Source: a virus | Taxonomy: Duplodnaviria; Caudoviricetes | Direction: 5' to 3' (one strand) | IMG/VR virus record: IMGVR_UViG_3300044580_000329 | Coordinates: 1 to 54,062 of that record | Length of the DNA stretch: 54,062 nt | Shown here: positions 15,990-36,054 of the stretch, one piece after another | Layout of the letters: each line of letters opens with the position of its first letter | Numbering within the stretch: the stretch's first letter is position 1 | Translations under genes and position numbers: made by a program | The notes under the pieces: generated by a model | Database searches by the model: none | What the model was told of the DNA's origin: nothing | The model's input: only the letters and a program-made list of their open reading frames with translations

Positions 15990-16868
15990 ATGAAAAAATA
16001 CATTATGTTAAGCGAAAAAAGAATAGGAATTGTTGGACAAGGATTTGTTGGCAATTCAATTAAAGAAGGAATGATTAAAGACTATCCTAATTTGTTAACA
16101 TTCGACATTCAACCACGACTTTCTATGTGCAAATCATTGGAAGAAATGGTTAAACAAACAAATGTGATATTCGTTTGTATTCCAACCCCAATGCAAAAGG
16201 ATGGAAAGTGCTATACAGGTTTGTTAGAGCAAGTTGTAGATGATATTTCAAAGATAGTAATTTCAGATGACTATTTTAAGGATAAGATATTAATTCTAAA
16301 GACAACCATTCCTCCCGGAACGACTGAAATGCTTCAAAACAAATATATGATGTTTCATTTTGTTTTCAATCCTGAATTCTTAACAGAAGCTAATGCAGTA
16401 AATGATTTTAAAAATCAGAATCGCATTATTTTAGGAGGAAATAATGAAGAGGCTCTAAATATAGTTTCTGATTTATACAAAAAATCGTTTCCATTTATTC
16501 CTATTGTAAAAATGACTTCGCAAGAGGCAGAAATGGTTAAGTATATGACCAACACATTTTTATCTACAAAGGTTATCTTTGCTAATGAAATGTATGAAAT
16601 TTGCAATGCATTAGGAATTGATTACGAAAGAGTTTATAAGGCTGCTAAACTTGACACAAGATTAGGTGAATCTCACTGGAAAGTTCCTGGGCCAGATGGT
16701 GATTTTGGTTTTGGCGGTCATTGTTTTCCAAAAGACACTAATGCAATAAAATACTTAGCAAATCAAAATGGAGTTGACACTACTCTTCTCAATGCAGTTC
16801 TTAAAAAGAATGACAAAATACGAAAAAATAGAGAATGGGAAAACCAAAAAGGACGATCAGTAATCTAA
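15990..16868 (+). CDS. UDP-glucose/GDP-mannose dehydrogenase family protein
   Basis: GIVGQGFVG, CIPTP, KTTIPPGT, FNPEFL, GFGGHCFPKD. Confidence 0.92.
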   Translation: MKKYIMLSEKRIGIVGQGFVGNSIKEGMIKDYPNLLTFDIQPRLSMCKSLEEMVKQTNVIFVCIPTPMQKDGKCYTGLLEQVVDDISKIVISDDYFKDKILILKTTIPPGTTEMLQNKYMMFHFVFNPEFLTEANAVNDFKNQNRIILGGNNEEALNIVSDLYKKSFPFIPIVKMTSQEAEMVKYMTNTFLSTKVIFANEMYEICNALGIDYERVYKAAKLDTRLGESHWKVPGPDGDFGFGGHCFPKDTNAIKYLANQNGVDTTLLNAVLKKNDKIRKNREWENQKGRSVI

Positions 16869-19524: not shown

Positions 19525-19603
19525 AAATGTTAAAAAATGTTAAAAAATTTTTTACTGTCATAGAAAAGTATTATATTTGCTATGTAATTAAAAAACATAC
19601 ACT

Positions 19604-20734
19604 ATGAAAAAGTTTGCATTTTTATTCATGATCAGTATCACATTACTTCTCTCTTGTGAGAAGATTGAAGATACTACACCCACCCCTCCTCCTGCCCCCG
19701 CCAATTTAGAATTTACATTGGCAGTGACTAATGTTTCCATATTTGATGGTAATGATGGAAAAATAACGGTAAATATTACTACTGGAAATCCTCCTTATTC
19801 CTATCAATTGGGAACCAATCCTTCACAATCTTCGAACGTTTTTTCAGGACTTGTAGCTGGAACATATAACGTTACTGTGACAGATAGTAAACAGAAAACT
19901 TTAACTAAGTCAGCTCAAGTAACTCAACCCACAATTACTCCTTTATCTTTTACACTTTCAGCAACAAACGTTTCTGCTTGGGGATTATCAGACGGAAAAA
20001 TAACTGTAACAGTCTCGTCTGGTATGGCGCCATATACCTATACTGTTGGTCAGACAACTAATACAACTGGTATATTTACAGGTCTTATAGCAGGAAGTTA
20101 TGATGTAGTGGTTACTGATAATAAACAGCAAACAGGTACTAAATCCATTACCATTACGCAGCCTCCAAGGGTCCCCGTTTATACTAAAGATTTAATTGAT
20201 TTTACTTCAAGCAGTTATAATAAAGAAGCTATTTCAACTGAAGTTTCTGCTTATGCAAATCTTTTAAATGGAACCGAAAAATTTACTATATCATTTTGGT
20301 ACAATACTACTAATACGACGTCACCTAATAAAAATACTGCAATTACAACAGCCAGATTACTTTCTTCTACAAATACGTCTCAGCCATCTCTTACATCTGA
20401 TACTTGGATTGACATAAATACAAATTGGATTGCATATGGAAGAGCTAAGGCTAATTCCTTTACAAAAGACGAAATTCGTTTAACTAGTACAACTGCTTGG
20501 AGTGGGCTTCATCACATAGTAGTTTTATTTGATGGTTCCAAAATGAAAATGTATATCGATAATGTTTTAATCAATGAAGTTGCATCTTCAATAAATTTGA
20601 ATATAAATAAAATTTATTTGGGAGGTGCTTGTTCAAATACCAATTACGAGTATAATGGTATTATGAGCAAAATAAAAATTTACAATGCAGCCATTACTCC
20701 TGAAGAAGTTGATTATCTATTTAAAAATAAATAG
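19604..20734 (+). CDS. Lipoprotein with SprB-type repeats and a C-terminal LamG/ConA domain
   Basis: Lipobox LLLSC; two T(N)VS..G..DGKITV...G..PY.Y...F.GL.AG.Y.V.VTD repeats; FTISFW, HHIVV..DGS.MKMYID, IKIYNAAITPEEV. TATATTTG promoter at 19572. Confidence 0.85.
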   Translation: MKKFAFLFMISITLLLSCEKIEDTTPTPPPAPANLEFTLAVTNVSIFDGNDGKITVNITTGNPPYSYQLGTNPSQSSNVFSGLVAGTYNVTVTDSKQKTLTKSAQVTQPTITPLSFTLSATNVSAWGLSDGKITVTVSSGMAPYTYTVGQTTNTTGIFTGLIAGSYDVVVTDNKQQTGTKSITITQPPRVPVYTKDLIDFTSSSYNKEAISTEVSAYANLLNGTEKFTISFWYNTTNTTSPNKNTAITTARLLSSTNTSQPSLTSDTWIDINTNWIAYGRAKANSFTKDEIRLTSTTAWSGLHHIVVLFDGSKMKMYIDNVLINEVASSINLNINKIYLGGACSNTNYEYNGIMSKIKIYNAAITPEEVDYLFKNK

Positions 20735-20751
20735 TTTGAGACAATTAAAGA

Positions 20752-20784
20752 AGATGGAGATCACAAAGGTCTCCATTTTTTTTT
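20752..20784 (+). terminator. Intrinsic terminator
   Basis: ATGGAGATC-acaaa-GGTCTCCAT followed by a T-run. Confidence 0.8.
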
Positions 20785-20910
20785 GAAAAAAGTACTCAAA
20801 AATTTTTTTATTTCAAAAATATGTGTTATAATTGCAACAGATTTAGTAAATTTTTGCACTAAATTAAAACTTTTTCAAACGAGTTCATAATATATAGAAA
20901 AAATCAACTG

Positions 20911-21018
20911 ATGCAGAAACAAGGTTTAAATATAGTCGTAGCGAATTGGGTGGCCAATGATGATAACAAAGGTCGTAGAGGAGTTATGCGTCCCGTTGAG
21001 GATATAATTGATTGGTGA
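20911..21018 (+). CDS. Putative attenuator leader peptide 1 (35 aa)
   Basis: MQKQGLNIVVANWVANDDNKGRRGVMRPVEDIIDW; lies between promoter motifs and a terminator ahead of the tRNA array and contains the antiterminator strand. Confidence 0.75.
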   Translation: MQKQGLNIVVANWVANDDNKGRRGVMRPVEDIIDW

Positions 21019-21075
21019 AACAACAACAATTAAGAATAAATCAACGGGAACTCTAAAGGTTCCCGTTTTTATTTT
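20991..21075 (+). promoter_or_regulatory. Antiterminator/terminator pair of attenuator 1
   Basis: Terminator AACGGGAAC(21043-51)/GTTCCCGTT(21059-67) plus T-run; TCCCGTTGA(20991-99) is the exact complement of TCAACGGGA(21041-49). Confidence 0.8.
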
Positions 21076-21102
21076 AAGTTCTTTGACATATTGCTTTCTT
21101 TC

Positions 21103-21173
21103 GCGGGTGTAGCACAGTGGTAGTGCAGGAGCCTTCCAAGCTTCTGACGTGAGTTCGATTCTCATCACCCGCT
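21103..21173 (+). tRNA. tRNA-Gly(TCC)
   Basis: GCGGGTG/CACCCGC, GGAGC-ctTCCaa-GCTTC. Confidence 0.92.
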
Positions 21174-21174
21174 C

Positions 21175-21290
21175 TAATTGCTGTAGTGACAGGAATGGGT
21201 TACTTCGTGCTAAATGGTTTAGCAATTGTCTTTTAAACAATGGTTGCGGTTCAAATCCGCCTGTTACCCTCCAAATTTTCTCAGTAATTA
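21175..21290 (+). ncRNA. Y-RNA-like RNA 5 enclosing tRNA-Lys-like D, anticodon and T arms
   Basis: TAATTGCTG/CAGTAATTA ends with TAGTGA, GTTACTTCG and TTTTCT motifs; inside are GCTA..TAGC, ATTGT-ctTTTaa-ACAAT and GCGG-ttcaaat-CCGC. Confidence 0.72.
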
Positions 21291-21293
21291 AAT

Positions 21294-21370
21294 GGTCTCT
21301 GGAGCTGCTAGGAGTGGCTGCCGGCCTGTCACGCCGGAACAACAGGAGGGTTCGAATCCCTTAGGGACCG
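21294..21370 (+). tRNA. tRNA-Asp(GTC), atypical D-arm
   Basis: GGTCTCT/AGGGACC, CCGGC-ctGTCac-GCCGG, G discriminator. Confidence 0.85.
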
Positions 21371-21465
21371 CTAACGCAGATAGCTGTTTAACAGCAAAAA
21401 CAGCTCTACAAAAAGTCGACTCATTGTAGAGAAGATACCGGTTAAAGTCCGCTAATGCTCCAATA

Positions 21466-21504
21466 AGTCCTACGCCGGGTGGACGGACTATAATAAAACT
21501 CGGC
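21466..21504 (+). ncRNA. Small H-type pseudoknot element
   Basis: S1 GTCC/GGAC, S2 GCCGGGT/ACTCGGC, A-rich linker ATAATAAA. Confidence 0.4.
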
Positions 21505-21509
21505 ATTTT

Positions 21510-21593
21510 AGGTCGTTAGCCTCAATGGTAAGGCACCGGTCTCCAAAACCGAGGTTGGAGTATTCCATGGGAGTTCGAATCTTCCACGACCTG
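21510..21593 (+). tRNA. tRNA-Trp(CCA) with long variable arm
   Basis: AGGTCGT/ACGACCT, CGGT-ctCCAaa-ACCG, extra hairpin TGGA-gtat-TCCA. Confidence 0.85.
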
Positions 21594-21656
21594 CTAATCA
21601 AAACTTTATATTAGAGTTCAAAAACTTTTATCCTGCTTGAATATATAAAATAAAAA

Positions 21657-22577
21657 ATGGATAGCGTTTGTATAATTTGTGGTTCGAAAAATTTTAAAAT
21701 TAAAAGTAATAGATTTTGTTCTCAAGAATGTATTCATCAGTATGGAACACAAAAGATGAATGAAAAAATTAAATGTAGAATTTGCGATAAAGAAATTTCT
21801 AAAGCCAATTATAATAAGCATCTAAAAACTCATGAAATTAAAAAACATCACTATTTTTGTGAAAATTGTGGCAAAGAAGTTTATGAAAAATATGGTTCAG
21901 GGAGATTTTGCTCTTCTAAATGTGCCAGAGGATTTAGTACAAAAAATAAAAGAGAGCAGATAAATAAAAAAGTTAGTGAAAAAATAAAACAAAAAATATC
22001 TAACGGAGAAAAAATAGGTTTTTGTACTTCAGGTAGATTAGTTAAATTAGAAAATAAAGTTTGCCCTATTTGTGGAAATAATTTTAAAGCTGATGAAAAA
22101 TTTGGTAAAAAAACTTGTTCAAAAGAATGTTCTCATAAGGCTACTGCTTTAAACAATAAAGGAAAAAAACACAATATCAAAGATACTTCAAGAATGGGAG
22201 GTCTTAGACCTGGGGGTGGAAAGTCAAAACAAATTTCTTATACAAATTGGTTAGGATATAAAATGTCTTTGAATAAAGAAGAAATTGAAGTAGCTAAAGT
22301 ACTTGATGAAAAAAAATTAAACTGGAATAGAAATAGAAAAGGTTTTCCATATTTAACACGGGACGGTAAACAAAGAAAATATTACCCGGATTTTGTAATA
22401 AATGATAATGAATACATTGAATATAAAGGGTGGGTAACTTCCGAAATGGAATGGAAAATGGAAAATGCAAAAGCAAATAATAATCTTAATTTAATTATAA
22501 TAGTTGGAAACGATAAAAGATATAAAGAGTTTGGAATATCTTTGCACGAATATTTAGATAGTAAATTTTTTCTATAG
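21657..22577 (+). CDS. Putative homing endonuclease: Cys-rich zinc fingers plus PD-(D/E)xK nuclease domain
   Basis: Repeated CxxC...RFCS..C motifs; YYPDF...IEYKG; inserted in the tRNA array behind ATATATAAAA. Confidence 0.8.
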   Translation: MDSVCIICGSKNFKIKSNRFCSQECIHQYGTQKMNEKIKCRICDKEISKANYNKHLKTHEIKKHHYFCENCGKEVYEKYGSGRFCSSKCARGFSTKNKREQINKKVSEKIKQKISNGEKIGFCTSGRLVKLENKVCPICGNNFKADEKFGKKTCSKECSHKATALNNKGKKHNIKDTSRMGGLRPGGGKSKQISYTNWLGYKMSLNKEEIEVAKVLDEKKLNWNRNRKGFPYLTRDGKQRKYYPDFVINDNEYIEYKGWVTSEMEWKMENAKANNNLNLIIIVGNDKRYKEFGISLHEYLDSKFFL

Positions 22578-22639
22578 GAGACTCTTAAAATGGAAAGATA
22601 CCGCGCATAGAGACGGCGGTTAATGCCTATAGGAAATTC

Positions 22640-22713
22640 GGGCTGTTAGCTCAGTTGCCTAGAGCGCCTGATTTGCACCCAGGAGGTCAAGGGTTGGAAT
22701 CCCTTACGGTCCA
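22640..22713 (+). tRNA. tRNA-Ala(TGC)
   Basis: GGGCTGT/ACGGTCC with G3:U70, loop ttTGCac. Confidence 0.88.
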
Positions 22714-22773
22714 CTACGACAGACTGTTAGATTTTCATAGTAACCGTGACGACGGGTTTCATAGAAAATTAAC

Positions 22774-22847
22774 GCCTTCGTGGCGCAATTGCGTAGCGCT
22801 ACTCCCTCTTAAGGAGAAGGTTAAGGGTTCGAGTCCCTTCGGAGGCA
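22774..22847 (+). tRNA. tRNA-Lys(CTT)
   Basis: GCCTTCG/CGGAGGC, CTCC-ctCTTaa-GGAG. Confidence 0.88.
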
Positions 22848-22855
22848 CAAATGCC

Positions 22856-22962
22856 GGATGATACACTGTTTTATCGCAGTGCCGGCTCCAAGGGCGATAC
22901 GTGGTGGTTGGTTGCCGGCCCCACCCAGTTGGTTATCATGGGTTCGATCCCCATATCGTCCA
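22856..22962 (+). ncRNA. Aberrant tRNA-like RNA with canonical T-arm and two alternative acceptor 5' strands
   Basis: ATGGG-ttcgatc-CCCAT-ATCGTCC-A; both GGATGAT (22856) and GGGCGAT (22892) can pair with ATCGTCC; no 7-nt anticodon loop. Confidence 0.55.
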
Positions 22963-22967
22963 CAAAT

Positions 22968-23044
22968 AGTGCGTTAGTTCAGTTGGTTAGAATATCAGAC
23001 TGTCACTCTGAGGGTCGCGAGTTCGAGTCTCGTACGCACTGCCA
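22968..23044 (+). tRNA. tRNA-Asp(GTC)
   Basis: AGTGCGT/ACGCACT, TCAGA-ctGTCac-TCTGA, encoded CCA. Confidence 0.93.
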
Positions 23045-23048
23045 TAGA

Positions 23049-23153
23049 ATCTGTAGTAAGAATAGAGTTTCATCGTGGTAAACATTGGTTCGAATCCAAT
23101 CGTGGCCGCCAAAAACTGGCTATGAAAAAAAGCTCTTTTCAATTTTCTCAGAT
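23049..23153 (+). ncRNA. Y-RNA-like RNA 6 with T-arm and loop-closed acceptor-like stem (YrlA-like)
   Basis: ATCTG-TAGTAA-GAATAGAG-TTTCATCG ... ATTGG-ttcgaat-CCAAT-CGTGGCC..GGCTATG ... CTCTTTTC-AATTTTCT-CAGAT. Confidence 0.75.
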
Positions 23154-23193
23154 CAATTTTTTTGCTTATATTAGCTTATTAAATTAGCCACAT

Positions 23194-23265
23194 GGGGATA
23201 TAGCTCAGAGGTAGAGCGCTTGCCTGTTAAGCAAAGGGTCGGGATTTCGAAATTCTCTATCCCCG
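23194..23265 (+). tRNA. tRNA-Asn(GTT)
   Basis: GGGGATA/TATCCCC, TTGC-ctGTTaa-GCAA. Confidence 0.87.
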
Positions 23266-23279
23266 CAAATTTTCAAACA

Positions 23280-23534
23280 ATGGATGAATTATTACAAATT
23301 ATCGAAAGATTAAAGGAAGAAAACGAAGAGTTGAAATCAAAATTGATTGATCTTACGTTTGAAATGAATTACAGCAAAGAGGTAGAGTTAATTGAATTTC
23401 TTCGTTCAATTTATTCAAGCATTCAGGAGGAAATGAACTTCAAAACCAGAAGTAAATTATCAAAGAGCCAAATGCTCTATAGTTTGAAAAAGAATATTGA
23501 AGAATTTGCTAAGAATAACAAAATATCATTATGA
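23280..23534 (+). CDS. Hypothetical coiled-coil protein
   Basis: Start moved to MDELLQ, downstream of tRNA-Asn. Confidence 0.6.
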   Translation: MDELLQIIERLKEENEELKSKLIDLTFEMNYSKEVELIEFLRSIYSSIQEEMNFKTRSKLSKSQMLYSLKKNIEEFAKNNKISL

Positions 23535-23914
23535 AACTTTACCGATACAGCGTTACATCTTGGCATCACGGAGCAATTCCTCATGTTGAATTACAAGATT
23601 ACGAAGTTATACGAGAAACAAAGCAAGGATATTGGGTACACCAGTATTTTGGAAGTGAGAAAAAATGGGTATCTAAAGATGGATTAAGAAGATTTGCATT
23701 TCCAACCAAGTACCAGGCGATGCAGAACTTTATAAAACGAACAGAAAAACGAGTAAAATATTTAGAAATAGATTTACAGGCTTGTCAATTAGGTTTGGAA
23801 TCAGCAAAAAGAATACAGGAAGAAATTTCAGAAGATGACGATGTGATAACATTACATCATATTTTAAAACTGCGGGGTGGGGCAGCGGTAGCTCGAGAGG
23901 CTCATAACCTCTAG
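23531..23914 (+). CDS. Hypothetical phage protein
   Basis: YEVIRETKQGYWV...KKWV....RRFAFPT..A; the 3' end overlaps tRNA-fMet. Confidence 0.65.
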   Translation: MKLYRYSVTSWHHGAIPHVELQDYEVIRETKQGYWVHQYFGSEKKWVSKDGLRRFAFPTKYQAMQNFIKRTEKRVKYLEIDLQACQLGLESAKRIQEEISEDDDVITLHHILKLRGGAAVAREAHNL

Positions 23915-23942
23915 GTCGGGGGTTCGAATCCCTCCTCCGCTA
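23871..23942 (+). tRNA. tRNA-fMet(CAT), initiator-like
   Basis: TGCGGGG/CTCCGCT with 1:72 mismatch, AGAGG-ctCATaa-CCTCT. Confidence 0.85.
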
Positions 23943-23947
23943 CAAAT

Positions 23948-24078
23948 GGCGAGAAAGTTTAGAAAAAATGACTCTTATTGGCTTTCTCATTTCGATGTAG
24001 TAATTATGGGGGTTTCATCGGAAAAACGTCAAGCTCATAACTTGAAGATCATAGGTTCAAATCCTATTCTCGCCGCCA
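23948..24078 (+). ncRNA. tRNA-Met(CAT)-like RNA with a circularly permuted Y-RNA module in the D-loop (Y-like RNA 7)
   Basis: GGCGAGA/TCTCGCC-G-CCA, D-stem GTTT/AAAC, TCAAG-ctCATaa-CTTGA, ATAGG-ttcaaat-CCTAT; the 63-nt D-loop contains TTTCT-CAT-ttcg-ATG-TAGTAA...GTTTCATCG. Confidence 0.78.
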
Positions 24079-24080
24079 TT

Positions 24081-24153
24081 GACCTCGTAACTCAGTTGGT
24101 AGAGTACAACACTTTTAATGTTGGAGTCGAGAGTTCGAGTCTCTCCGGGGTCA
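24081..24153 (+). tRNA. tRNA-Lys(TTT)
   Basis: GACCTCG/CGGGGTC, CAACA-ctTTTaa-TGTTG. Confidence 0.93.
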
Positions 24154-24158
24154 CAAAC

Positions 24159-24240
24159 GCTCTTATCTTACTTAAAAAAGGAAAGATACCGGCATTAGTT
24201 TTTAAGGCCGGAGATATGGGTTCGAATCCCATTAGGAGCT
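24159..24240 (+). ncRNA. tRNA-like RNA with a 13-nt anticodon loop
   Basis: GCTCTTA/TAGGAGC, CCGGC-attagtttttaag-GCCGG, ATGGG-ttcgaat-CCCAT. Confidence 0.65.
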
Positions 24241-24249
24241 CTAAAATTT

Positions 24250-24322
<73 letters not shown>

Positions 24323-24400
24323 CACTGGATGCCTATGCCGAGGGAGGTTTGTTCCCTGATTTGAGGGCTATTATCAAAGTGCGGGCATGAAATCCTTTAA

Positions 24401-24478
24401 GGAAGATTAGCTCAGTTGGTTCAGAGCATTTGCCTTACAAGCAAGGGGTCGTGGGTTCGAATCCCTCATCTTCCACCA
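24401..24478 (+). tRNA. tRNA-Val(TAC)
   Basis: GGAAGAT/ATCTTCC, TTGC-ctTACaa-GCAA, encoded CCA. Confidence 0.94.
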
Positions 24479-24529
24479 TATGAAAGGAATGAGCTTTCCG
24501 ATTAGACAACAAATGAACAAGCATGATTG

Positions 24530-24797
24530 GCAATTTTGTGAAGTAGAAAGAGGCTTGCATCCAACGCAAAAACCAGTTAAATTGTGTGAATATTTTATTA
24601 AAACATACACAAACGAAAATGAATTAATTTTAGATAATTGTTTTGGAAGCGGAAGTACATTTATAGCGTGCATAAATACAAATCGCAATTTTATAGGTTT
24701 TGAACTGAATCAAAAATATTATAATATTGCAAAAAACAGGATAAATCAACATATTATAGACAATAATTTGCAAGATAAATATAAGTTAATTGCATAA
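24530..24797 (+). pseudogene. C-terminal fragment of an N6/N4 DNA methyltransferase
   Basis: HPTQKPV...LILDNCFGSGST...FIGFEL, fused in frame to the duplicated C39 start. Confidence 0.8.
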
Positions 24798-24817
24798 TTT
24801 TTGAATAAAACTGCGAT

Positions 24818-25591
24818 TTGATTGAAAATATTAATATAAAAGTGAGGAATTATATGGAACATATAAAAATAAATAATAGTTTATACATAAATGCAAATTG
24901 TTTATTTATAATGCAAAAAATGATTCAAAATAATGAAATGGTTGATTGTATAATTGTTGACCCACCTTATGGTATCAATCATCATAGCAATAGAAGAAAA
25001 GATAAAAAAAATTCTATTACTAAAAAAGGTATAATAAATGACAACAATAACCAAGAATTACTAAAACAAGCAATTGATTTATCATATCAGTGTTTAAAAA
25101 ATAATTCGCATATTTACTGGTTTACAAGATGGGATAAATTAGAAGAACACCTTCCTATGTTAAGAAATTATTATAATATTAAGAATATTCTTATATGGGA
25201 TAAAGGCAATCATGGTAGTGGTGATTTGACAGGTGCTTATGGTAATAGATATGAATGTATTATATATGGAATGAAAGGTAGACGTGATTTAAATAAGATT
25301 AATGGAAAACAAAGACACGATGATATACTTACATATTCAAAAGTACCTGCACAAAAATTAATTCATCCACATCAAAAACCTATAGGTTTATTAGAATTTT
25401 TAATACTAAAATCCACTAATGAAGGAGATATAATTCTTGATATGTTTGCAGGAGTAGGTAGTACATTAGTTGCAGCGATAAAAAATAAAAGAGAATGTAT
25501 TGCTATTGAATTAGATAGTAATATATATAAAAAAGGCAAGGAAAGACTTAATAATGAAGGTTTGAAATTACATATATATAAAGTTAGTTAA
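24818..25591 (+). CDS. N6-adenine/N4-cytosine DNA methyltransferase (beta class)
   Basis: DPPY precedes HPHQKP and DMFAGVGST; the true start is probably a slightly later Met. Confidence 0.92.
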   Translation: MIENINIKVRNYMEHIKINNSLYINANCLFIMQKMIQNNEMVDCIIVDPPYGINHHSNRRKDKKNSITKKGIINDNNNQELLKQAIDLSYQCLKNNSHIYWFTRWDKLEEHLPMLRNYYNIKNILIWDKGNHGSGDLTGAYGNRYECIIYGMKGRRDLNKINGKQRHDDILTYSKVPAQKLIHPHQKPIGLLEFLILKSTNEGDIILDMFAGVGSTLVAAIKNKRECIAIELDSNIYKKGKERLNNEGLKLHIYKVS

Positions 25592-25641
25592 TGCATAATA
25601 TTAATATAAAAGTGTTATTTGATTTAAAAAGGAGTGATTGT

Positions 25642-25986
25642 GTGAAAAGTCCAATTAAATGGGTAGGTGGAAAATCTAAGTTAGCAAGAATTATTTTACC
25701 TATGTTTCCCAAGCATGATGGTTATGTGGAAGTATTTGGTGGCAGTGCTTATATGTTATTTTCTAAAGAACCAAGTAAATGGGAAGTTTTAAATGATTAT
25801 GATAGCAATCTAATGAATTTTTGGTCAGTGATAAAAAATGCACCAGACCAATTTATAGATAGTTTTAATTATATTTTAGTAAGTAGAGAAACTTTTAATA
25901 TATATAAACAAAAATACAAGAATAATGATTTTAATGATAATATAGAAAAAGCACATGTATTTTATTATTTAGTTAAAGCTGGATTT
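25642..25986 (+). pseudogene. N-terminal fragment of a Dam-family adenine methyltransferase
   Basis: SPIKWVGGKSKLA, YVEVFGGSA, EVLND; truncated at the second 44-bp repeat, with no DPPY. Confidence 0.8.
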
Positions 25987-25989
25987 GGA

Positions 25990-26486
25990 ATGAGCTTTCC
26001 GATTAGACAACAAATGAACAAGCATGATTGTTCGGTGTGTGTCATTTGGTGCATACTCCGACATGCTGAAATTGATATTAATTATTTAGATTTATATCGA
26101 TTTATTAGTCCTCCTACAAAACCGGATGAAGGGATTTCTGGAGATCAAATAATAAAAATACTTAAGAAATTCGGAATTAAAACTATTTCTGAAAGAAGCA
26201 ACATTTCAAAACTAAGATTTTACACAACCAAGTGGCCTGTAATAGTTAGTATACAACATAAAAAGAAAGGAATGTTGAATGGAAACATATAACAGAATTC
26301 GGACATTATGTAATTGTCTTAGAAGTAAATGATAAAAAGGTGAGATTCATGGATCCGAATTATGGAAAGATAAGGTCTTTAAATATTAAAGATTTTAAAG
26401 ACAGATGGCATGATGGAGATGAAAATGAACTTTGTAAATACCCAGCAATCATATGTATGGTAAATGAATCGAAATCTGTATTTTAA
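25990..26486 (+). CDS. C39-family cysteine peptidase, frameshifted near 26265
   Basis: RQQMNKHDC, PVIV, then in the shifted frame FGHYVIV...VRFMDPNYG...F...W; the shift falls in an A-run. Confidence 0.75.
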
Positions 26487-27519: not shown

Positions 27520-27595
27520 GGTTCGGTAGCTCAATGGATAGAGCAACAGCCTTCTAAGCTGTCGGTTGAGCGTTCGAGTCGCTCCCGAATCACCA
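27520..27595 (+). tRNA. tRNA-Arg(TCT)
   Basis: GGTTCGG/CCGAATC, ACAGC-ctTCTaa-GCTGT, CCA. Confidence 0.93.
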
Positions 27596-27611
27596 ATTTA
27601 AATTTTCATTT

Positions 27612-28084
27612 ATGACAGCACTTTATATTATAATGTTAACCATATTTGTTGGTTATATTTCATGGATATGGGCTAGATACCATCAATTTCCCATAGTTAT
27701 TATTCACTTCCCAACAACCTAAAATTGATATTTACATTATGGTGTTGGGGGTATGCTTTTCCAGCAATAATTGTTGCATCAACACCCTTAATGTTTTTCG
27801 CTGGTGCGGGAATTTGTTTTGTTGGTGCGGCAGCCGCTTATCGAGAAAAAATGACTGAGACTGTTCATATAATTGGAGCAGCAGCAGCCATTCTTTTTAG
27901 TCAATTATCTATCATAATAGATTTTCATATGTGGTATATCACTGTTGCTTTTGCAGCAATTGCTTTACCACTTGCCTTAACAAGATTTTCAAAGAAAGGA
28001 ATATGTCCAAATAGAACTTGGTGGGTTGAAATTTTAGCATTTATAACAATAGCTTTAGTATTAGGAATAAAATTATGGTCGTAA
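27612..28084 (+). CDS. Multi-pass membrane protein, frame break near 27680
   Basis: ATG at 27612 (MTALYIIML...), continuing as PSISHSYYSLP...FTLWCW...RTWWVEI in another frame. Confidence 0.55.
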
Positions 28085-28350
28085 AGTTAGTATCATATGA
28101 TGGTTCATATCCGAACTTATGTAGCGGTAAGTTAGTTATTTCTGTTGATGAAAAGGAATGGGTTTTTCCATCACACTGTTTATCAAGCGGTGGTAGCGTA
28201 TGGTTTGACGATCATTGGAGTGAACATGTTGAAGATGGTCCTTGGGGTGTAGGTGAATGGCCTGAAGGTTTTCCTGAAGAAGCTAAGGAAGAAGCTTTAA
28301 GCGTTATTAACGAAGGTATTTCTTGGGGTTGTTGTGGAGGTTGTGTATGA
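28075..28350 (+). CDS. Conserved phage hypothetical protein
   Basis: YDGSYPNLCSG...SGG...GCCGGCV C-terminus. Confidence 0.65.
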   Translation: MVVKLVSYDGSYPNLCSGKLVISVDEKEWVFPSHCLSSGGSVWFDDHWSEHVEDGPWGVGEWPEGFPEEAKEEALSVINEGISWGCCGGCV

Positions 28351-28592
28351 CAGCACAAGAATACATAGATGCTTGGGATATAAGATGGGAAAATCATTTT
28401 AGATACTCTGTTTTAGTTGAAGAATTAAGTAATTTACAAGGAATTGATGTTGTTGCCCAGATGGAATCAGTTTTAATAGCAGAAATGAATAAAGAGGTCG
28501 ATAAACATATAAAAAACGATATACAGAGATTATTTAATATCAGTATACAACAAGCCGAAAAAATTAACACAATAGTAGATGGAATCTTATAA
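28347..28592 (+). CDS. Small protein resembling an internal segment of major capsid protein
   Basis: LQGIDVVAQMESVLIAEMNKEVDKHI versus QWGIDVIAMVENAGINEISQSINKHI in this window's capsid protein; ATGA-coupled start. Confidence 0.55.
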   Translation: MTAQEYIDAWDIRWENHFRYSVLVEELSNLQGIDVVAQMESVLIAEMNKEVDKHIKNDIQRLFNISIQQAEKINTIVDGIL

Positions 28593-29211
28593 TTCTATAC
28601 CAAAGTGGGGTGAAGATTATTTTGGCAAATATGTATTTGCATTTGACAAAATAGATGGTTCTAATTTCAGAGCGGAATGGAATAGAAAATTATCTAAAAA
28701 GTCCCGCTTTACACATGGGTTTGGTAAATTTGGAACTAGACAAGATAGGATAAAATTTATTAAAGACCCATATTGCGAAGGCATTGAAATATTTAAAAAC
28801 AAGTTTTCAGAAAAACTAGATAAAATATTTTTAGAAAACAAGGCATTTAGAAACATTGATAACATTACTGTATTTGGAGAATTTTATGGGTCTAAAAGCT
28901 TTGCTGGAATGCATGATTGGGGTGAAAAACATGATGTCAAAATTTTTGATGTGTTTTTAGACCGAAAAGGAATTTTGCCCCCATCTGATTTTATAAAAAT
29001 ATTTGAAGGTTTAGATACATGCAAACTTGTATTTGCTGGAATTTTTTCTCAAAGTTATTTAGAGTTAATTGAAAAAAATATATTAAATTTACAAGAAGGA
29101 GTTGTTTGTAAAGGAGTTGAAAACCAAGAGGTGTTCATGTTCAAAATAAAAACACTGAAATGGCTTCAGAAGGTAAGAGATTTATACGGTAATGAAAGAA
29201 CTGATTATTAG
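28579..29211 (+). CDS. RNA ligase-like nucleotidyltransferase
   Basis: Motif I FDKIDGSN, VFGEFYG, FDV, EGVV, FKIK. Confidence 0.82.
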   Translation: MESYNSIPKWGEDYFGKYVFAFDKIDGSNFRAEWNRKLSKKSRFTHGFGKFGTRQDRIKFIKDPYCEGIEIFKNKFSEKLDKIFLENKAFRNIDNITVFGEFYGSKSFAGMHDWGEKHDVKIFDVFLDRKGILPPSDFIKIFEGLDTCKLVFAGIFSQSYLELIEKNILNLQEGVVCKGVENQEVFMFKIKTLKWLQKVRDLYGNERTDY

Positions 29212-29458
29212 ATCAACAACTACAGTTGATGAACTTGTTCTTCAATGGGAAGCAAAACAAGAGTTACGATTTATTTTTGATGGGTTTCCTCAATTAAATA
29301 TACTTCGTCCAACTGCATCATTGATTGCAAATGATTTAGTTTCAGTACAACCAATGGCAGCTCCAACAGGCATATTACATTATGTTGACTATGTTTATAA
29401 TGGAACCCCTAATGAAAGGCAACATGATTGCGGAATTGAAAAAACTTTAAGTGAATGA
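29192..29458 (+). CDS. Small protein containing a gp23 Gol-region-like segment
   Basis: LIANDLVSVQPMAAPTGILHYVDYVY versus TVGFDIVNVVPMPGPTGVISYLDYVY in this window's capsid protein. Confidence 0.7.
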   Translation: MKELIIRSTTTVDELVLQWEAKQELRFIFDGFPQLNILRPTASLIANDLVSVQPMAAPTGILHYVDYVYNGTPNERQHDCGIEKTLSE

Positions 29459-29640
29459 AGAACTATAAATCTAAAAGAAAAGATTTAAGAGATCGAAAAA
29501 GAGAGATAATGGAAGTTGGATTTGACTCTTCAAAAGATAGAAAAAGAGTTGTTGAATCCTTTAAAAGAGAATCTCGTTCATTGAAAAGAAGTGAAAAGAA
29601 TTCTTTCAAGAATTCTTGGAGAAATGAATATGGTATTTAA

Positions 29641-29717
29641 GGCCTTATAGCTCAATTGGATAGAGCACCTGACTACGAATCAGGAGGTTATGGGTTCGAC
29701 TCCCGTTAAGGTCACCA
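29641..29717 (+). tRNA. tRNA-Arg(ACG)
   Basis: GGCCTTA/TAAGGTC, CCTGA-ctACGaa-TCAGG, CCA. Confidence 0.94.
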
Positions 29718-29719
29718 CA

Positions 29720-29793
29720 GCCTTCATAGCTCAATTGGATAGAGCATCTGACTTCGGATCAGATGGTTGAGGGTTCGAATCCTTCTGAGGGCG
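29720..29793 (+). tRNA. tRNA-Arg(TCG)
   Basis: GCCTTCA/TGAGGGC, TCTGA-ctTCGga-TCAGA. Confidence 0.93.
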
Positions 29794-30662
29794 CTTAATA
29801 TATAATAAGATGAGTGATAAACTTGAAAATTTGTTGGCTATTTTGTTCTGTGTCATATTTGCAATTAGTGTAGGAATATATTATTTTGTTAGTATGACTA
29901 TTGGGGGATGGATGGCCGGTTTGACGATTTGTTTGGGGATTTCATATATGTTAGCTCAATCATTTCGTTATGCTTGGATAAGTATCAAGCAACTATCAGA
30001 CCAAATTGATAGTTTAAAAAAATAAACAATATGGACGACGAGGGTGATAGTAAAAAAAGAAAAATTAGCAACTGTGTTTCTAATGTTAGGAACTTTCTTC
30101 AATCCATTAGGATACGATGCGCTATTGAAGGCTTTACTGGATTTGACAGGCAATTATTGGCTTTCAATTTCCGTTTTTTACCTTGTATCAGCTTGTTTCT
30201 TTACGTTATACTTTATATTTTCTAAAACAAATCCACTTGATTTATTTAGAAAAAAGAAAAAAATTATCCACTCATAAAAATATTCATAAAAATATTTTGA
30301 AAATTTGGAGTAAGTGGTGGATGGATGCCATGTAAAATGCCATTGAGCGGTGATAAAATAAGTTCAATTGGCGGTGCTCTTACTTACTACACACTTCCTG
30401 CAGACCAAGAAGGCTATTCTTATTATGCATCAGTGGGTGTTGCTTCTCAGGGCTACCGATATGAATTAACAAGTTCATGGGGATATGGCGAAGAAGCAAC
30501 TTTACCTATGACAATCATAATGGTTGGTTACAAATATGACAGCGGAGGAGTTAACTTTAAACTTGGTGGAGGTTATGGATGGTGTGAAGAAGCTGGTGCA
30601 TGGACATTTGAAGCAACATTGGGATTTACACTTTTCGGAAACTAATTTTTAAACATAAATTA

Positions 30663-34424: not shown

Positions 34425-34496
34425 ATCTCAAAAAATTTTTTAGATTCAAAAACTTTTTATATTTTTGCGTATATATAATAAAAGAATTTTTATAGA

Positions 34497-34571
34497 ATGA
34501 AGCGTCATAGCATACATATCAGTTCGATTAGCTCAACCGAAAGTTGTCTGTGGCCTTCTTATGTAAATTGA
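34497..34571 (+). CDS. Putative attenuator leader peptide 2 (24 aa)
   Basis: MKRHSIHISSISSTESCLWPSYVN; directly precedes a terminator and the Thr/Ser/Ile/His tRNAs. Confidence 0.8.
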   Translation: MKRHSIHISSISSTESCLWPSYVN

Positions 34572-34628
34572 AGTACTAACTTTAAAAATTAAGGGAAGGC
34601 CTAAAAAGACCTTCCCTTTTTTGTTTTA
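34552..34628 (+). promoter_or_regulatory. Antiterminator/terminator pair of attenuator 2
   Basis: Terminator AAGGGAAGG(34591-99)/CCTTCCCTT(34610-18) plus T-run; GGCCTTCTT(34552-60) pairs with GGGAAGGCC(34593-601). Confidence 0.8.
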
Positions 34629-34629
34629 T

Positions 34630-34705
34630 GCTCTTTTAGCTCAGTAGGTAGAGTACTTCCTTGGTAAGGAAGAGGTCTTGGGTTCGACCCCCAAAAAGAG
34701 CTCCA
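34630..34705 (+). tRNA. tRNA-Thr(GGT)
   Basis: GCTCTTT/AAAGAGC, CTTCC-ttGGTaa-GGAAG, CCA. Confidence 0.93.
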
Positions 34706-34722
34706 AAAATGTTCTTTGAAAT

Positions 34723-34809
34723 GGAGGTACGTATTTGGTGTGCTACGCTGCCTTGAAAGCAGTGAGGTCGATGAGAGTCGGCGTGTGGGTTCGAGTCCCT
34801 CTGCCTCCG
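34723..34809 (+). tRNA. tRNA-Ser(TGA), atypical D-arm
   Basis: GGAGGTA/TGCCTCC-G, GCTGC-ctTGAaa-GCAGT, long variable arm GTCGAT..GTCGGC. Confidence 0.82.
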
Positions 34810-34817
34810 CACAATAT

Positions 34818-34894
34818 TGGGATGTATCCCCTCTGTCTTATACACAGTAGAAAGGGTAGTTGGTTGCACATGGGTTCGATCCCCATCTTCCCAA
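34818..34894 (+). tRNA. Non-canonical tRNA-Ile(TAT)-like RNA without a normal D-arm
   Basis: TGGGATG/CTTCCCA-A, CTGT-ctTATac-ACAG enclosed by TATCC/GGGTA, canonical T-arm ATGGG-ttcgatc-CCCAT. Confidence 0.65.
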
Positions 34895-34932
34895 CAAATT
34901 TTGGTTAGCACGCATAGATATATAAAATAAAA

Positions 34933-35595
34933 ATGAACTGCAAATTTTGTAATAAGGAAATTAATAATAAAGGAGGATTGGTAAAACATGAAAACGGATG
35001 TTCTTTAAACCCTGAAAAAATATCATATAGGTCTAATTTTATAGAGTATAATCAAAAAGTAAGGACGGGGGAGATACAAGGAAAAAATCAATATATTACA
35101 GCTAAAGAACGAGGAGAAAAATGGGTGATGCCCAAAGAGGCAATTGAAAAAAATAGACAAAAACATTTAGGAAAACCTCTTAGTAAAGAACACAAAGAAA
35201 TATTATCATTTAAAAGATCTAAGGTAATAGAAGAATTAGGAAAGGGCGGATTTAAACATATCAAATGGTATAAAATTAAAAATATATTCGAAGAAGAATT
35301 TATAGTAAGGGGAAGTTGGGAACTCAAAGTTGCAAAGATCTTAAATAAAGAAAATATTATATGGAGAAGAAAAATTTACTTGAAATATAAAGATAACGAA
35401 GGAGTCATTAGAACATATACGCCAGATTTTTATTTGGTAGAAAGAGATCTTTATATAGAAGTTAAAGGATATTTTAGCATAAAAGATAGGAAAAAAATGA
35501 AAAATGTCTTAAGAGATAATAATATAAATTTAATTATTATTGATAAAAAAATTATAAATGACGAAGAAAAGATATTAAAAATGATAAATTCCTGA
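34933..35595 (+). CDS. Putative homing endonuclease, PD-(D/E)xK type
   Basis: N-terminal CKFC..H...C, RGSWE, YTPDFY....YIEVKG; located in the tRNA array behind ATATATAAAA. Confidence 0.82.
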   Translation: MNCKFCNKEINNKGGLVKHENGCSLNPEKISYRSNFIEYNQKVRTGEIQGKNQYITAKERGEKWVMPKEAIEKNRQKHLGKPLSKEHKEILSFKRSKVIEELGKGGFKHIKWYKIKNIFEEEFIVRGSWELKVAKILNKENIIWRRKIYLKYKDNEGVIRTYTPDFYLVERDLYIEVKGYFSIKDRKKMKNVLRDNNINLIIIDKKIINDEEKILKMINS

Positions 35596-35673
35596 CGTGG
35601 ATGAGTGGTTTAGTCACCTGGCTGATATCCAGGGCTCTCAAAAGCGACGTAGGTTCGAATCCTGCCGTCAGGA
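35591..35673 (+). tRNA. tRNA-Ile(GAT) with long variable arm
   Basis: CCTGACG/CGTCAGG-A, CCTGG-ctGATat-CCAGG, extra GCT-ctcaaa-AGC hairpin. Confidence 0.82.
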
Positions 35674-35679
35674 CAAAAT

Positions 35680-35770
35680 GGAGAGTTGCCAGAGTGGTCT
35701 ATCGGGGCAGCCTGCTAAGCTGTTGAACGCGATATGTGTTCCGTGAGTTCGAACCTCACACTCTCCGCCA
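35680..35770 (+). tRNA. tRNA-Ser(GCT)
   Basis: GGAGAGT/ACTCTCC-G-CCA, loop ctGCTaa, long variable arm. Confidence 0.93.
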
Positions 35771-35831
35771 CTGAAAACGATGCTAAAGTTATCCCTGTTT
35801 TAAGTAGCGGAAGTTTTAGGGATGACAAACT

Positions 35832-35921
35832 GGAGAGTTGGCAGAGTTGGTCTATTGCGGCAGCCTGGAAAGCTGTGATCGAGAGATTGGTCCGTGGGTT
35901 CGAATCCCGCACTCTCCGCCA
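35832..35921 (+). tRNA. tRNA-Ser(GGA)
   Basis: GGAGAGT/ACTCTCC-G-CCA, loop ctGGAaa. Confidence 0.93.
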
Positions 35922-35924
35922 TAC

Positions 35925-36000
35925 GGTGGTATTAGTGTTTAACGGTTAGCACGCAAGTCTGTGGAACTTGTAGTGAAGGGTTCGAATCCCACATACCACC
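35925..36000 (+). tRNA. tRNA-His(GTG)
   Basis: G-1:C73, GTGGTAT/ATACCAC, CAAGT-ctGTGga-ACTTG. Confidence 0.92.
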
Positions 36001-36054
36001 AAGTGGGCAAAATTGCCCCTTCTAGACTGGATATATACATAAAACAATATATCC

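What the first reader, a model, noticed from the sequence alone, without database searches (positions are those of the whole stretch)
20911..21075. Attenuator 1: 19-codon V/A/N/W/D/K/G/R/M run ahead of the Gly-Asp-Trp-Ala-Lys-Asn-Met-Val(-Arg) tRNAs
Codons 9-27 (VVANWVANDDNKGRRGVMR) use only amino acids whose tRNAs lie downstream, with all four Val codons, both GGT and GGA, and both CGT and AGA. The leader has no Ser, His or Thr. TCCCGTTGA (20991-99) is a perfect 9-bp complement of the terminator's 5' strand. Caveat: the Arg tRNAs are 6-9 kb away and a promoter-like site lies near 23167, so not all tRNAs need be on one transcript.
Basis: partly seen in the sequence, partly recalled or inferred. 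Interest (0 to 1): 0.88.

Follow-up and report, generated by a model that had tools for sequence, protein, structure and literature searches.

The report
Leader-peptide attenuator before phage tRNA genes
A tiny coding stretch and a switchable stop signal sit in front of a giant phage's tRNA genes, and its codons call for exactly the tRNAs encoded behind it, so the phage probably makes more of these tRNAs only when ribosomes run short of them.

Summary
Observation confirmed. A 35-codon ORF (20911-21018) is followed by a 10-bp terminator hairpin with a T tail (21043-21075), 28 nt before tRNA-Gly. A 9-nt stretch at the ORF's 3' end (20991-20999) pairs with the terminator's 5' strand. Codons 9-27 name only the nine amino acids whose tRNAs follow, and all nine are sampled. 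A second unit (34497-34624) precedes the Thr/Ser/Ile/His tRNAs, with a leader rich in just those four.

Diverged relatives and four other huge phages (Lak-A1, LR756500, LR745206, LR756501) have the same layout, with different leaders that track their own tRNA sets. Under a blind rule, 24 units scored 0.51 against their own tRNA set and 0.29 against permuted sets (0 of 20,000 permutations as high). On average 97% of the amino-acid kinds with a tRNA in a set appear in the leader before it. The antiterminator pairing changes in step with the terminator.

Best reading: ribosome-mediated transcription attenuators that open tRNA gene clusters when the codons served by those tRNAs are decoded slowly. 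There are no RNA or ribosome data. Ten literature searches found no description. It is a known mechanism applied to a new class of target.

The parts
20795..20809 (+). A/T-rich upstream motif shared exactly with the second unit (34427-34441)
   Evidence: the only two exact matches in the window lie upstream of the two leaders. The motif is conserved in the relatives aligned.
20867..20896 (+). Conserved promoter-like block just upstream of the leader ORF
   Evidence: The pattern derived from three diverged relatives recovered 21 loci that carry an L1-type leader. Its function as a promoter has not been shown.
20903..20916 (+). Segment 1, which covers the start codon and can pair with segment 2
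   Evidence: Present in the MFE fold.: -12.5 kcal/mol, p = 0.010 against 500 shuffles. The one variable base among close relatives falls on the unpaired bulge.
20911..21018 (+). Leader ORF, 35 codons
   Evidence: The upstream region is A-rich and lacks a Shine-Dalgarno motif, like 51 of 56 long ORFs of the window.
20935..20991 (+). Sensor run, codons 9-27, naming only amino acids that have a tRNA downstream
   Evidence: 9 of 9 amino-acid kinds of the tRNA set are present.
20990..21000 (+). Segment 2, the antiterminator strand inside the 3' part of the ORF
21040..21052 (+). Segment 3, the 5' strand of the terminator, which pairs either with segment 2 or with segment 4
21043..21075 (+). Intrinsic terminator hairpin with T tail
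21078..21093 (+). Conserved 16-nt motif between the terminator and the first tRNA; function unknown
   Evidence: one exact copy in the window. Variants sit at the same place in relatives and in LR756500.
21103..24478 (+). Proximal tRNA genes (Gly, Asp, Trp, Ala, Lys, Asp, Asn, Met, Lys, Gly, Val), interspersed with ORFs
27520..29794 (+). Three Arg tRNA genes (tct, acg, tcg), 6.4-8.7 kb behind the leader
   Evidence: No strong terminator was found between 21075 and 29794 on this strand. Co-transcription has not been shown.
34497..34571 (+). Second leader ORF, 24 codons, with an 11-codon run of His, Ser, Ile and Thr only
34551..34561 (+). Segment 2 of the second unit
   Evidence: -15.6 kcal/mol, p = 0.014. 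The truncated fold forms this pairing.
34591..34624 (+). Terminator of the second unit, with T tail
34630..36001 (+). tRNA genes Thr, Ser, Ile, Ser, Ser, His controlled by the second unit

Best explanation
Each unit is a ribosome-mediated transcription attenuator that gates a cluster of phage tRNA genes.

Proposed sequence of events:
- Transcription starts at a promoter 15-60 nt upstream of the leader ORF, and a ribosome loads on the nascent RNA.
- If the ribosome decodes the sensor codons quickly, it reaches the 3' end of the ORF and its stop codon. There it covers segment 2, so the terminator (segments 3:4) forms and RNA polymerase stops before the first tRNA gene.
- If decoding of any sensor codon is slow, because the matching charged tRNA is scarce, the ribosome lags behind. 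Segment 2 then pairs with segment 3 as soon as it is made, the terminator cannot form, and polymerase reads into the tRNA genes.
- With no ribosome at all, segment 1 (over the start codon) can pair with segment 2, and termination is the default.

The codons in the leader are those read by the tRNAs encoded downstream. The circuit is therefore a negative feedback: enough of these tRNAs shuts their genes off, and too few opens them.

Shown by computation: the ORF, the terminator, the alternative pairings, the match of leader to tRNA set, and its co-variation across phages.

Inferred: translation of the ORF, the ribosome positions, the direction of the switch, and the identity of the signal (tRNA abundance or tRNA charging).
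For: Anatomy in the window:
- The ORF, the terminator and the 2:3 and 1:2 pairings are all present.
- Only 28 nt separate the T tail from tRNA-Gly, so this tRNA must be transcribed through the terminator.

Specificity:
- Fraction of leader residues with a tRNA in their own cluster, against the other cluster of the same genome: 0.76 vs 0.09 and 0.57 vs 0.22 (window); 0.73 vs 0.10 and 0.71 vs 0.24 (G003); 0.81 vs 0.19 and 0.81 vs 0.19 (L052).
- Within-genome Fisher tests give p = 2.2e-5, 1.2e-4 and 1.3e-7.

Co-variation:
- In L052 the first leader gains Phe, Ile, Glu and Tyr codons, and its cluster holds Phe, Ile, Glu and Tyr tRNAs. Its second leader is rich in Gln, Arg, Thr, Ser, Leu, His, Pro and Cys, and precedes exactly those tRNAs.

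Blind rule over 22 loci of 11 phages:
- There were 134 tRNAs preceded by a gap. Of these, 28 had a hairpin with a T tail, and 24 of those had an ORF stopping at the hairpin.
- Mean own score was 0.514 against 0.289 +/- 0.026 for permuted sets (0 of 20,000 permutations as high).
- Coverage of tRNA amino-acid kinds was 0.973 against 0.656 (0 of 20,000).
- The result also holds for n = 20, after dropping three homologous relatives.

Rank among small ORFs:
- Each of 12 leaders ranks in the top 0.08-5.7% of 2,618 small-ORF starts.
- Fisher combination over 7 non-homologous units gives p = 3e-10.

Structure:
- The segment 2:3 duplex beats 500 shuffles at p <= 0.05 in 13 of 16 units, and segment 2 always lies at the ORF's 3' end or over its stop codon.
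- Terminators of different sequence have matching segment 2.
- The truncated transcript folds into 2:3 in 8 of 8 L1 units and 3 of 4 L2 units.

RNA-level against peptide-level constraint:
- The conserved segment-2 core is read in three different frames among four relatives, while the upstream run keeps its composition.
- Close relatives differ in the leaders by 4 synonymous changes and 1 non-synonymous change. The non-synonymous one lies outside the run, on a bulge of the 1:2 helix.

Initiation context matches real genes.
Against: - No transcript ends, ribosome footprints or reporter data exist. The RNA-library contigs that were laid do not cover the leader.
- 8 of 34 residues of this leader lie outside the tRNA set: Gln x2, Leu, Ile x3, Pro, Glu.
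- Codons 23-27 lie within about 15 nt of segment 2. A ribosome stalled there should mask segment 2 and favour termination, so not all 19 codons can work in the same direction (inference from coordinates).
- The tRNA-Arg(acg) that reads CGT lies 8.6 kb downstream. A single transcript has not been shown.
- At codon level, 4 of 26 cognate residues (GTC, GCC, GTT x2) need four-way wobble by U34 tRNAs. In L052's second leader, four AGT codons have no Ser(gct) tRNA in the cluster. The G002 leader has three Asn codons but no Asn tRNA was detected downstream.
- The 1:2 pairing beats shuffles in only 6 of 15 units.
- Most tRNA gaps (106 of 134) have no such hairpin, and a crAss-like phage and pT24 have no unit.
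- Amino-acid starvation would also open the switch, although extra tRNA would not help then.
Confidence: 0.8

Rival explanations
1. The architecture is the same, but the signal differs. The leaders report general translation capacity, amino-acid starvation or the stage of infection, rather than the supply of the particular tRNAs encoded downstream.
For: Each leader samples up to 11 amino acids, so any general slowdown of elongation would open it. Genes for an RF-1 domain protein, ribosomal protein S21 and an RNA ligase lie within the same tRNA region, which fits a general translation module.
Against: A general sensor would not need a leader tailored to each sub-cluster. Yet leaders within one genome are mutually exclusive in composition, and some are single-amino-acid leaders, such as a Gln-rich leader before three Gln tRNAs in LR745206.
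Confidence: 0.1
2. The ORF encodes a small functional peptide with its own promoter and terminator. The tRNAs are expressed by leaky read-through or from other promoters, and the match in composition is a side effect.
For: The ORF is conserved and open in 21 L1-type loci. The peptides of the L1 family share a recognisable core.
Against: Order and sequence are not conserved between families, while composition follows the tRNA set. The 3' part is conserved as RNA and is read in three different frames. Synonymous sites in the close relatives are almost frozen, which points to a constraint on the RNA rather than on a peptide. Only 28 nt separate the terminator from the first tRNA, leaving no room for another promoter.
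Confidence: 0.04
3. This is a translation-independent RNA switch. The leader RNA folds into terminator or antiterminator in response to a protein or to direct pairing with tRNA anticodons, in the manner of a T-box, and the ORF is incidental.
For: The 2:3 and 3:4 alternatives exist whether or not the ORF is translated. Sensor codons could in principle pair with anticodons.
Against: Rfam gives no T-box or any other match near threshold. A start codon, an open frame of 15-58 codons and a stop placed at segment 2 recur in 24 of 28 hairpin-bearing units. The initiation context is like that of real genes. A T-box senses a single tRNA, not nine.
Confidence: 0.04
4. This is chance: an ordinary terminator and a random small ORF in AT-rich DNA.
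For: Small ORFs and hairpins are common. The terminator scan finds no more sites than shuffles do.
Against: 0 of 20,000 permutations reach the observed match or coverage. The two runs are the longest non-repetitive ones in the window, and each lies at its own cluster.
Confidence: 0.02

Closest known systems
Leader-peptide (ribosome-mediated) transcription attenuators of amino-acid biosynthetic operons: trp, his, leu, phe, and the multivalent thr and ilv leaders (established knowledge, recalled)
   Same: There is a short ORF behind the promoter, enriched in regulatory codons, and an intrinsic terminator before the regulated genes. An antiterminator strand sits at the ORF's 3' end, so a ribosome at the stop codon masks it. 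An upstream strand can sequester the antiterminator when nothing is translated.
   Different: The regulated genes are tRNA genes, not enzymes. Each leader samples 1 to 11 amino acids, in mixed order rather than tandem repeats of one codon. The sensor run lies between segments 1 and 2 rather than inside segment 1. The system is viral. No Rfam leader family matches.
Leader-peptide control of aminoacyl-tRNA synthetase genes: pheM-pheST (recalled), and hisS paralogues in bacilli (PMC2965389, passages seen)
   Same: A leader peptide senses the supply of charged tRNA and controls a gene of the translation apparatus.
   Different: The target is a protein that charges tRNA. Here the target is the tRNA itself, so the product feeds back directly on the sensor.
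T-box riboswitches
   Same: They are transcription attenuators that respond to tRNA status through a terminator/antiterminator choice.
   Different: A T-box binds one uncharged tRNA directly and needs no translation. It has a conserved specifier loop and T-box sequence. None was found here.
Phage tRNA clusters seen as codon compensation or as counter-defence against tRNA-cleaving host systems (PMC10264068; search listing and start of abstract only)
   Same: They concern the same kind of genes and the same biological question, namely why phages carry tRNAs.
   Different: That work concerns what the tRNAs do. No regulation by leader peptides was found in ten searches.

Membership tests
Leader-peptide transcription attenuator | Short ORF between the promoter and the first regulated gene | tested here: met
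   ORFs at 20911-21018 and 34497-34571. 24 of 28 hairpin-bearing units in 11 phages have such an ORF.
Leader-peptide transcription attenuator | ORF enriched in codons for the regulatory amino acid(s) | tested here: met
   Here the regulatory amino acids are those that have a tRNA gene downstream.
Leader-peptide transcription attenuator | Intrinsic terminator between the leader ORF and the regulated genes | tested here: met
Leader-peptide transcription attenuator | Antiterminator pairing that excludes the terminator and is masked by a ribosome at the end of the ORF | tested here: met
   The 2:3 duplex has p <= 0.05 in 13 of 16 units. The stop codon lies +1 to +42 nt from the start of segment 2.
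Leader-peptide transcription attenuator | Upstream segment 1 that sequesters segment 2 when the leader is not translated | tested here: inconclusive
   It is present in this unit (p = 0.010) but better than shuffles in only 6 of 15 units.
Leader-peptide transcription attenuator | Read-through rises when charged cognate tRNA is scarce | not testable with these tools
   This needs reporter, Term-seq or ribosome-profiling data. The RNA contigs that were laid do not cover the leader.
Leader-peptide transcription attenuator | Regulated genes encode amino-acid biosynthesis, transport or charging proteins | tested here: not met
   The first regulated genes are tRNAs. This is the point of novelty.
Rfam leader families (Trp, His, Thr, Leu and other curated leaders) | Match to the family covariance model at its gathering score | tested here: not met
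   The only matches at gathering score in the window are tRNAs. At E <= 10, the best hits on the two leaders score 9.6-24.6 bits against cut-offs of 35-229 bits, and most overlap the terminator hairpin.
T-box riboswitch | Specifier loop plus conserved T-box sequence, matched by the Rfam model | tested here: not met
   There is no T-box hit even at E <= 10.

The most novel reading that the evidence does not exclude
Huge phages may run a modular tRNA-supply sensor. Each tRNA sub-cluster would have its own leader peptide that samples every tRNA species encoded behind it, so ribosome speed on those codons sets transcription of just that sub-cluster. This would serve two purposes. It would give homeostasis of the phage's own tRNA pool. 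It would also act as a tripwire: when host defences cleave or deplete particular tRNAs, the matching cluster is switched on. The RNA ligase, RF-1 domain protein and S21 genes embedded in the same region would then form a translation-maintenance island.
Probability: 0.35. Interest if true: 0.95.

Novelty: new variant of a known kind. Interest (0 to 1): 0.9.

Why it matters
Why phages carry tRNA genes, and how those genes are controlled, has been an open question for decades. A leader peptide whose codons mirror the tRNAs behind it would be the first case in which tRNA genes sense the demand for their own products through translation speed.

It would extend classical attenuation from amino-acid metabolism to the decoding apparatus itself, and from cells to viruses.

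It also gives a direct, testable read-out of which tRNAs a phage regards as limiting. It offers a way to find co-regulated tRNA sets from sequence alone, and compact multi-input sensors of tRNA supply for synthetic biology.

The pattern recurs in Lak megaphages of the human and animal gut and in other huge phages, so it is not a curiosity of one genome.

Tried and rejected
- **Whole genome and earlier findings:** neither was available.
- **Protein-guided locus search with the leader peptides:** I replaced it with degenerate DNA patterns.
- **INPHARED DNA search with 19600-25600:** only tRNA and methylase fragments, no close relative.
- **Scan with a 17-mer from the second terminator:** more than 119 viral loci. 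Only the already known relatives have a tRNA behind it.
- **Metatranscriptome runs:** 24 runs were listed and 4 were laid as contigs. They cover 21293-22716 and some tRNAs but not 20823-21100, so they say nothing about the leader.
- **MAFFT alignment of eight L1 variants:** it misaligned segment 2 in two sequences, so I did not use it for pair counts. Per-sequence duplex tests were used instead.
- **Pattern hits without an L1-type leader:** of the 38 sequences with the promoter-like pattern, 12 had no ORF and 5 had an unrelated ORF. I did not study these further; they may be chance hits.
- **Promoter consensus:** the recalled Bacteroidota -7 promoter consensus occurs 15 times in the window against 15.1 expected. 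Promoter assignment therefore stays open.
- **A third copy of the upstream A/T motif at 41887:** it precedes an ordinary small membrane-protein ORF, not a tRNA.
- **Two candidate leaders in LR756500 dropped:** one Lys/Met/Phe-rich and one Ser-rich, because no terminator follows them.
- **Thermodynamic folds with a 30-nt 'ribosome' mask:** they kept the 1:2 helix across the masked stretch, and so do not model the kinetics.

Full report
**What is there**

The window is AT-rich (33% G+C), and nearly all long ORFs are on the + strand. It holds 25 tRNA genes.

It comes from a T4-like huge phage:
- The major capsid protein matches Pfam Gp23, and a prohead protease is present.
- The nearest capsid proteins in the phage collection are those of the Prevotella Lak megaphages (47% identity). 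Next come the uncultured huge phages LR756500 (41%), LR745206 (31%) and LR756501 (29%).
- Related IMG/VR contigs of 38-83 kb are rated 7-20% complete. This suggests a genome of several hundred kb (inference).

At the finding's coordinates, reading 5' to 3', I find:
- a conserved promoter-like block (20867-20896);
- a 35-codon ORF (20911-21018);
- a spacer;
- a 10-bp hairpin with a T tail (21043-21075);
- a conserved 16-nt motif (21078-21093);
- tRNA-Gly at 21103.

The upstream gene (19604-20734) has its own hairpin-plus-T-run just after its stop. The hairpin at 21043 is therefore not that gene's terminator. No promoter fits in the 28 nt between the T tail and the tRNA.

Codons 9-27 name only Val, Ala, Asn, Trp, Asp, Lys, Gly, Arg and Met. 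All nine amino-acid kinds with a tRNA gene downstream are represented.

In the six-frame translation of the whole window, this 19-residue run is the longest made of those nine amino acids. It is tied only with a low-complexity repeat.

The stretch 20991-20999 is the exact complement of 21041-21049:
- The duplex is -15.5 kcal/mol, and none of 500 shuffled leaders did as well.
- When the 3' strand of the terminator is left off, the minimum-energy fold pairs these two stretches.
- In the full transcript, the region over the start codon (20903-20916) pairs with segment 2, and the terminator forms.

**A second unit in the same window**

The second unit consists of:
- ORF 34497-34571, 24 codons;
- hairpin and T tail at 34591-34624;
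- tRNA-Thr at 34630, then Ser, Ile, Ser, Ser and His.

Its leader holds an 11-codon run of His, Ser, Ile and Thr only. This is the longest such run in the window outside a repeat.

The two leaders are mutually exclusive in composition. The first has 26 residues from its own set and 3 from the other set. The second has 5 and 13. Fisher's test gives p = 2.2e-5.

Both units share an exact A/T-rich motif about 70-115 nt upstream of the start codon. It occurs exactly nowhere else in the window.

**Close relatives**

Five IMG/VR contigs carry the same first leader. Across six aligned sequences, the 190 nt from the promoter block to the tRNA vary at only four kinds of site:
- one synonymous site;
- one base just before the start codon, which is the unpaired bulge of the 1:2 helix;
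- the spacer after the stop;
- the terminator loop.

Meanwhile, the neighbouring protein is only 80% identical in one of these relatives, and another relative lacks that gene altogether.

In the 83-kb contig G001, the second leader differs by three synonymous changes inside the run. Each is still read by the same downstream tRNA. There is also one amino-acid change at codon 3, again on a bulge.

Six relatives have a tRNA-Arg(tct) between Asp and Trp, about 0.3 kb behind the terminator. The window has other sequence in that slot. It does not help for CGT, whose tRNA is 8.6 kb away.

**Diverged relatives**

A search with the RF-1 domain protein of the tRNA region found 12 loci. Three of the nine more distant ones hold tRNA clusters.

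Their first tRNA is preceded by a homologous but different leader, with terminator and antiterminator. A pattern from the shared promoter-like block then found 10 viral and 27 metagenome loci. Of the 38 sequences examined, counting the window:
- 21 carry an L1-type leader, in eight distinct versions;
- 12 had no ORF;
- 5 had an unrelated ORF.

The leaders change together with the tRNAs:
- In locus L052 the first leader has gained Phe, Ile, Glu and Tyr codons. Its cluster reads Phe, Ala, Gly, Ile, Glu, Asp, Tyr, Met, Lys, Val, Glu, Met, Met, Asn.
- A second leader in L052 is rich in Gln, Arg, Thr, Ser, Leu, His, Pro and Cys. It precedes Gln, Ser, Ser, Cys, His, Pro, Arg, Thr, Thr, Leu, Met, Leu, Arg.
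- In G003 the first leader uses only AGA for Arg, and the only Arg tRNA found before the next unit has anticodon tct.

Own-cluster match is 0.57-0.81. The match to the other cluster of the same genome is 0.09-0.24.

**RNA-level evidence**

The terminators differ between lineages, and segment 2 differs with them. The duplex beats 500 shuffles at p <= 0.05 in 13 of 16 units. The other three give 0.056, 0.082 and 0.16.

Segment 2 always sits in the last codons of the ORF or over its stop codon. The conserved core of segment 2 is read in three different frames among four relatives. It is therefore conserved as RNA, while the run upstream keeps its amino-acid composition.

The 1:2 helix is better than shuffles in 6 of 15 units. 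It is common but not universal.

**Is the ORF likely to be translated?**

Only 5 of 56 long ORFs of the window have a Shine-Dalgarno-like motif, and their upstream 25 nt are 46% A. The two leaders have no such motif and are 56% and 52% A. The leaders therefore look like ordinary genes of this phage in this respect. There is no direct evidence of translation.

**Beyond the family**

I fetched tRNA regions of Lak-A1, LR756500, LR745206, LR756501, a crAss-like phage and Tenacibaculum phage pT24. In a seventh record, Tenacibaculum phage PTm1, the search found no tRNA, so no region was fetched.

Units of the same kind, with unrelated leaders, are present in the four huge phages. Examples:
- A His/Pro/Cys/Gly/Arg/Met-rich leader before His, Pro, Arg, Arg, Gly, Cys, Met in Lak-A1.
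- A Thr/Leu/Tyr/Pro/Gly/Gln/Ala leader before Ala, Leu, Pro, Tyr, Gln, Gly, Thr, Gly in LR756500.
- A Gln-rich leader before three Gln tRNAs in LR745206.
- An Asn/Leu/Thr/Val/Ile/Met/Arg leader before a 19-tRNA run of just those kinds in LR745206.

The crAss-like phage and pT24 showed none.

I then applied a blind rule: a tRNA after a gap of at least 140 nt, a hairpin with a T tail in the 170 nt before it, and an ORF of 12-70 codons stopping within -60 to +12 of the hairpin. It gave 134 gaps, 28 hairpins and 24 units.
- Mean match to the own tRNA set is 0.514. With sets permuted among units it is 0.289 +/- 0.026, maximum 0.394; 0 of 20,000 permutations reached the observed value.
- On average 97.3% of the amino-acid kinds of a set occur in its leader, against 65.6% for permuted sets (0 of 20,000). 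The four misses are three Met (the initiator was not counted) and one Arg in a doubtful unit.
- Without three homologous relatives (n = 20) the result stands.
- The rule is conservative. Two spurious hairpins cut true sets short, and the longest ORF was taken even where an inner start fits better.

**Mechanism**

The parts are those of a classical leader-peptide attenuator, so the classical logic is the most economical reading:
- A fast ribosome reaches the stop, covers segment 2, and the terminator forms.
- A slow ribosome leaves segment 2 free to capture segment 3, and polymerase reads on.

Because the regulated genes are the tRNAs that read the sensor codons, the loop is autoregulatory. Two points differ from trp-type leaders:
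- The sensor run lies between segments 1 and 2, not inside segment 1.
- The last five codons of this run are so close to segment 2 that a stall there should favour termination. The effective sensor is probably codons 5-22 or so (inference).

Whether the signal is tRNA abundance, tRNA charging or tRNA cleavage by host defences cannot be told from sequence. An RNA ligase, an RF-1 domain protein and ribosomal protein S21 are encoded among these tRNAs. This fits a module that maintains translation during infection.

**What is known**

Rfam gives no match for either leader near any family's threshold, and no T-box.

Ten full-text searches combined leader peptide, attenuation or antiterminator with phage tRNAs, tRNA genes, clusters, arrays or operons, Lak phage and huge phages. 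None found a report of tRNA genes under leader-peptide control.

A survey of bacterial attenuators mentions leader peptides before hisS paralogues but not before tRNA genes (PMC2965389; passages only).

Supplements and subscription journals were not searchable, so prior description cannot be excluded.

**Verdict**

It is a new variant of a known mechanism with a new kind of target, and it recurs across huge phages.

Noticed in passing
window 26791-27150, 27316-27513, 28579-29211: An RF-1 domain protein, ribosomal protein S21 and an RNA ligase are encoded among the tRNA genes (Pfam). Together they look like a translation-maintenance or tRNA-repair module.
   Followed up: partly
window 21078-21093; same place in L041, L051, L070, G003 and LR756500 units: A conserved 16-nt motif lies between the attenuator's T tail and the first tRNA. 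There is one exact copy in the window, and variants occur in relatives and in LR756500. It is too close to the tRNA to be its promoter. Its function is unknown.
   Followed up: partly
L037 2203-2275 vs L003 7799-7870; window 21372-21600: In the slot between tRNA-Asp and tRNA-Trp, two relatives carry nearly the same tRNA body with different anticodons: tct (Arg) and gtt (Asn). The window has unrelated sequence there, and a different, longer tRNA-Trp.
   Followed up: partly
window 21209-21260 and 24008-24072: Rfam calls two further tRNA-like sequences that ARAGORN does not (36 and 40 bits). They may be truncated or unusual tRNAs.
   Followed up: no
window 7206-8888: This is a 560-aa protein with a TROVE (Ro60-like) domain. 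RNA partners of the Y-RNA type may lie nearby.
   Followed up: no
window 24480-24797 and 25591-26292: Two methyltransferase ORFs share a stretch of about 14 identical residues. One is only the C-terminal part of an N6/N4 methylase. The other joins a D12-class methylase N-terminus to a C39 peptidase-like part. This looks like a rearranged or interrupted gene.
   Followed up: no
window 21657-22577 and 34933-35595: Two ORFs sit between tRNA genes. They have zinc-ribbon-like repeats and a weak match to phage endonuclease I. They may be homing endonucleases, which would explain why tRNA order and content differ between relatives.
   Followed up: no
L205 (LR756500) and L224 (pT24): ARAGORN finds tRNAs with anticodon cta, which would read the TAG stop codon. 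This hints at stop-codon recoding in these phages. In pT24 a terminator-like hairpin precedes this tRNA, but no leader ORF does.
   Followed up: no
window 13141-13200: A low-complexity repeat encodes Lys/Arg/Asn runs on the + strand and Ser/His runs on the opposite strand.
   Followed up: no
window 47420-48475, 45386-46285, 15990-16868, 5703-6062: These ORFs match a patatin-like phospholipase, a radical SAM protein, a UDP-glucose/GDP-mannose dehydrogenase and a thioredoxin.
   Followed up: no
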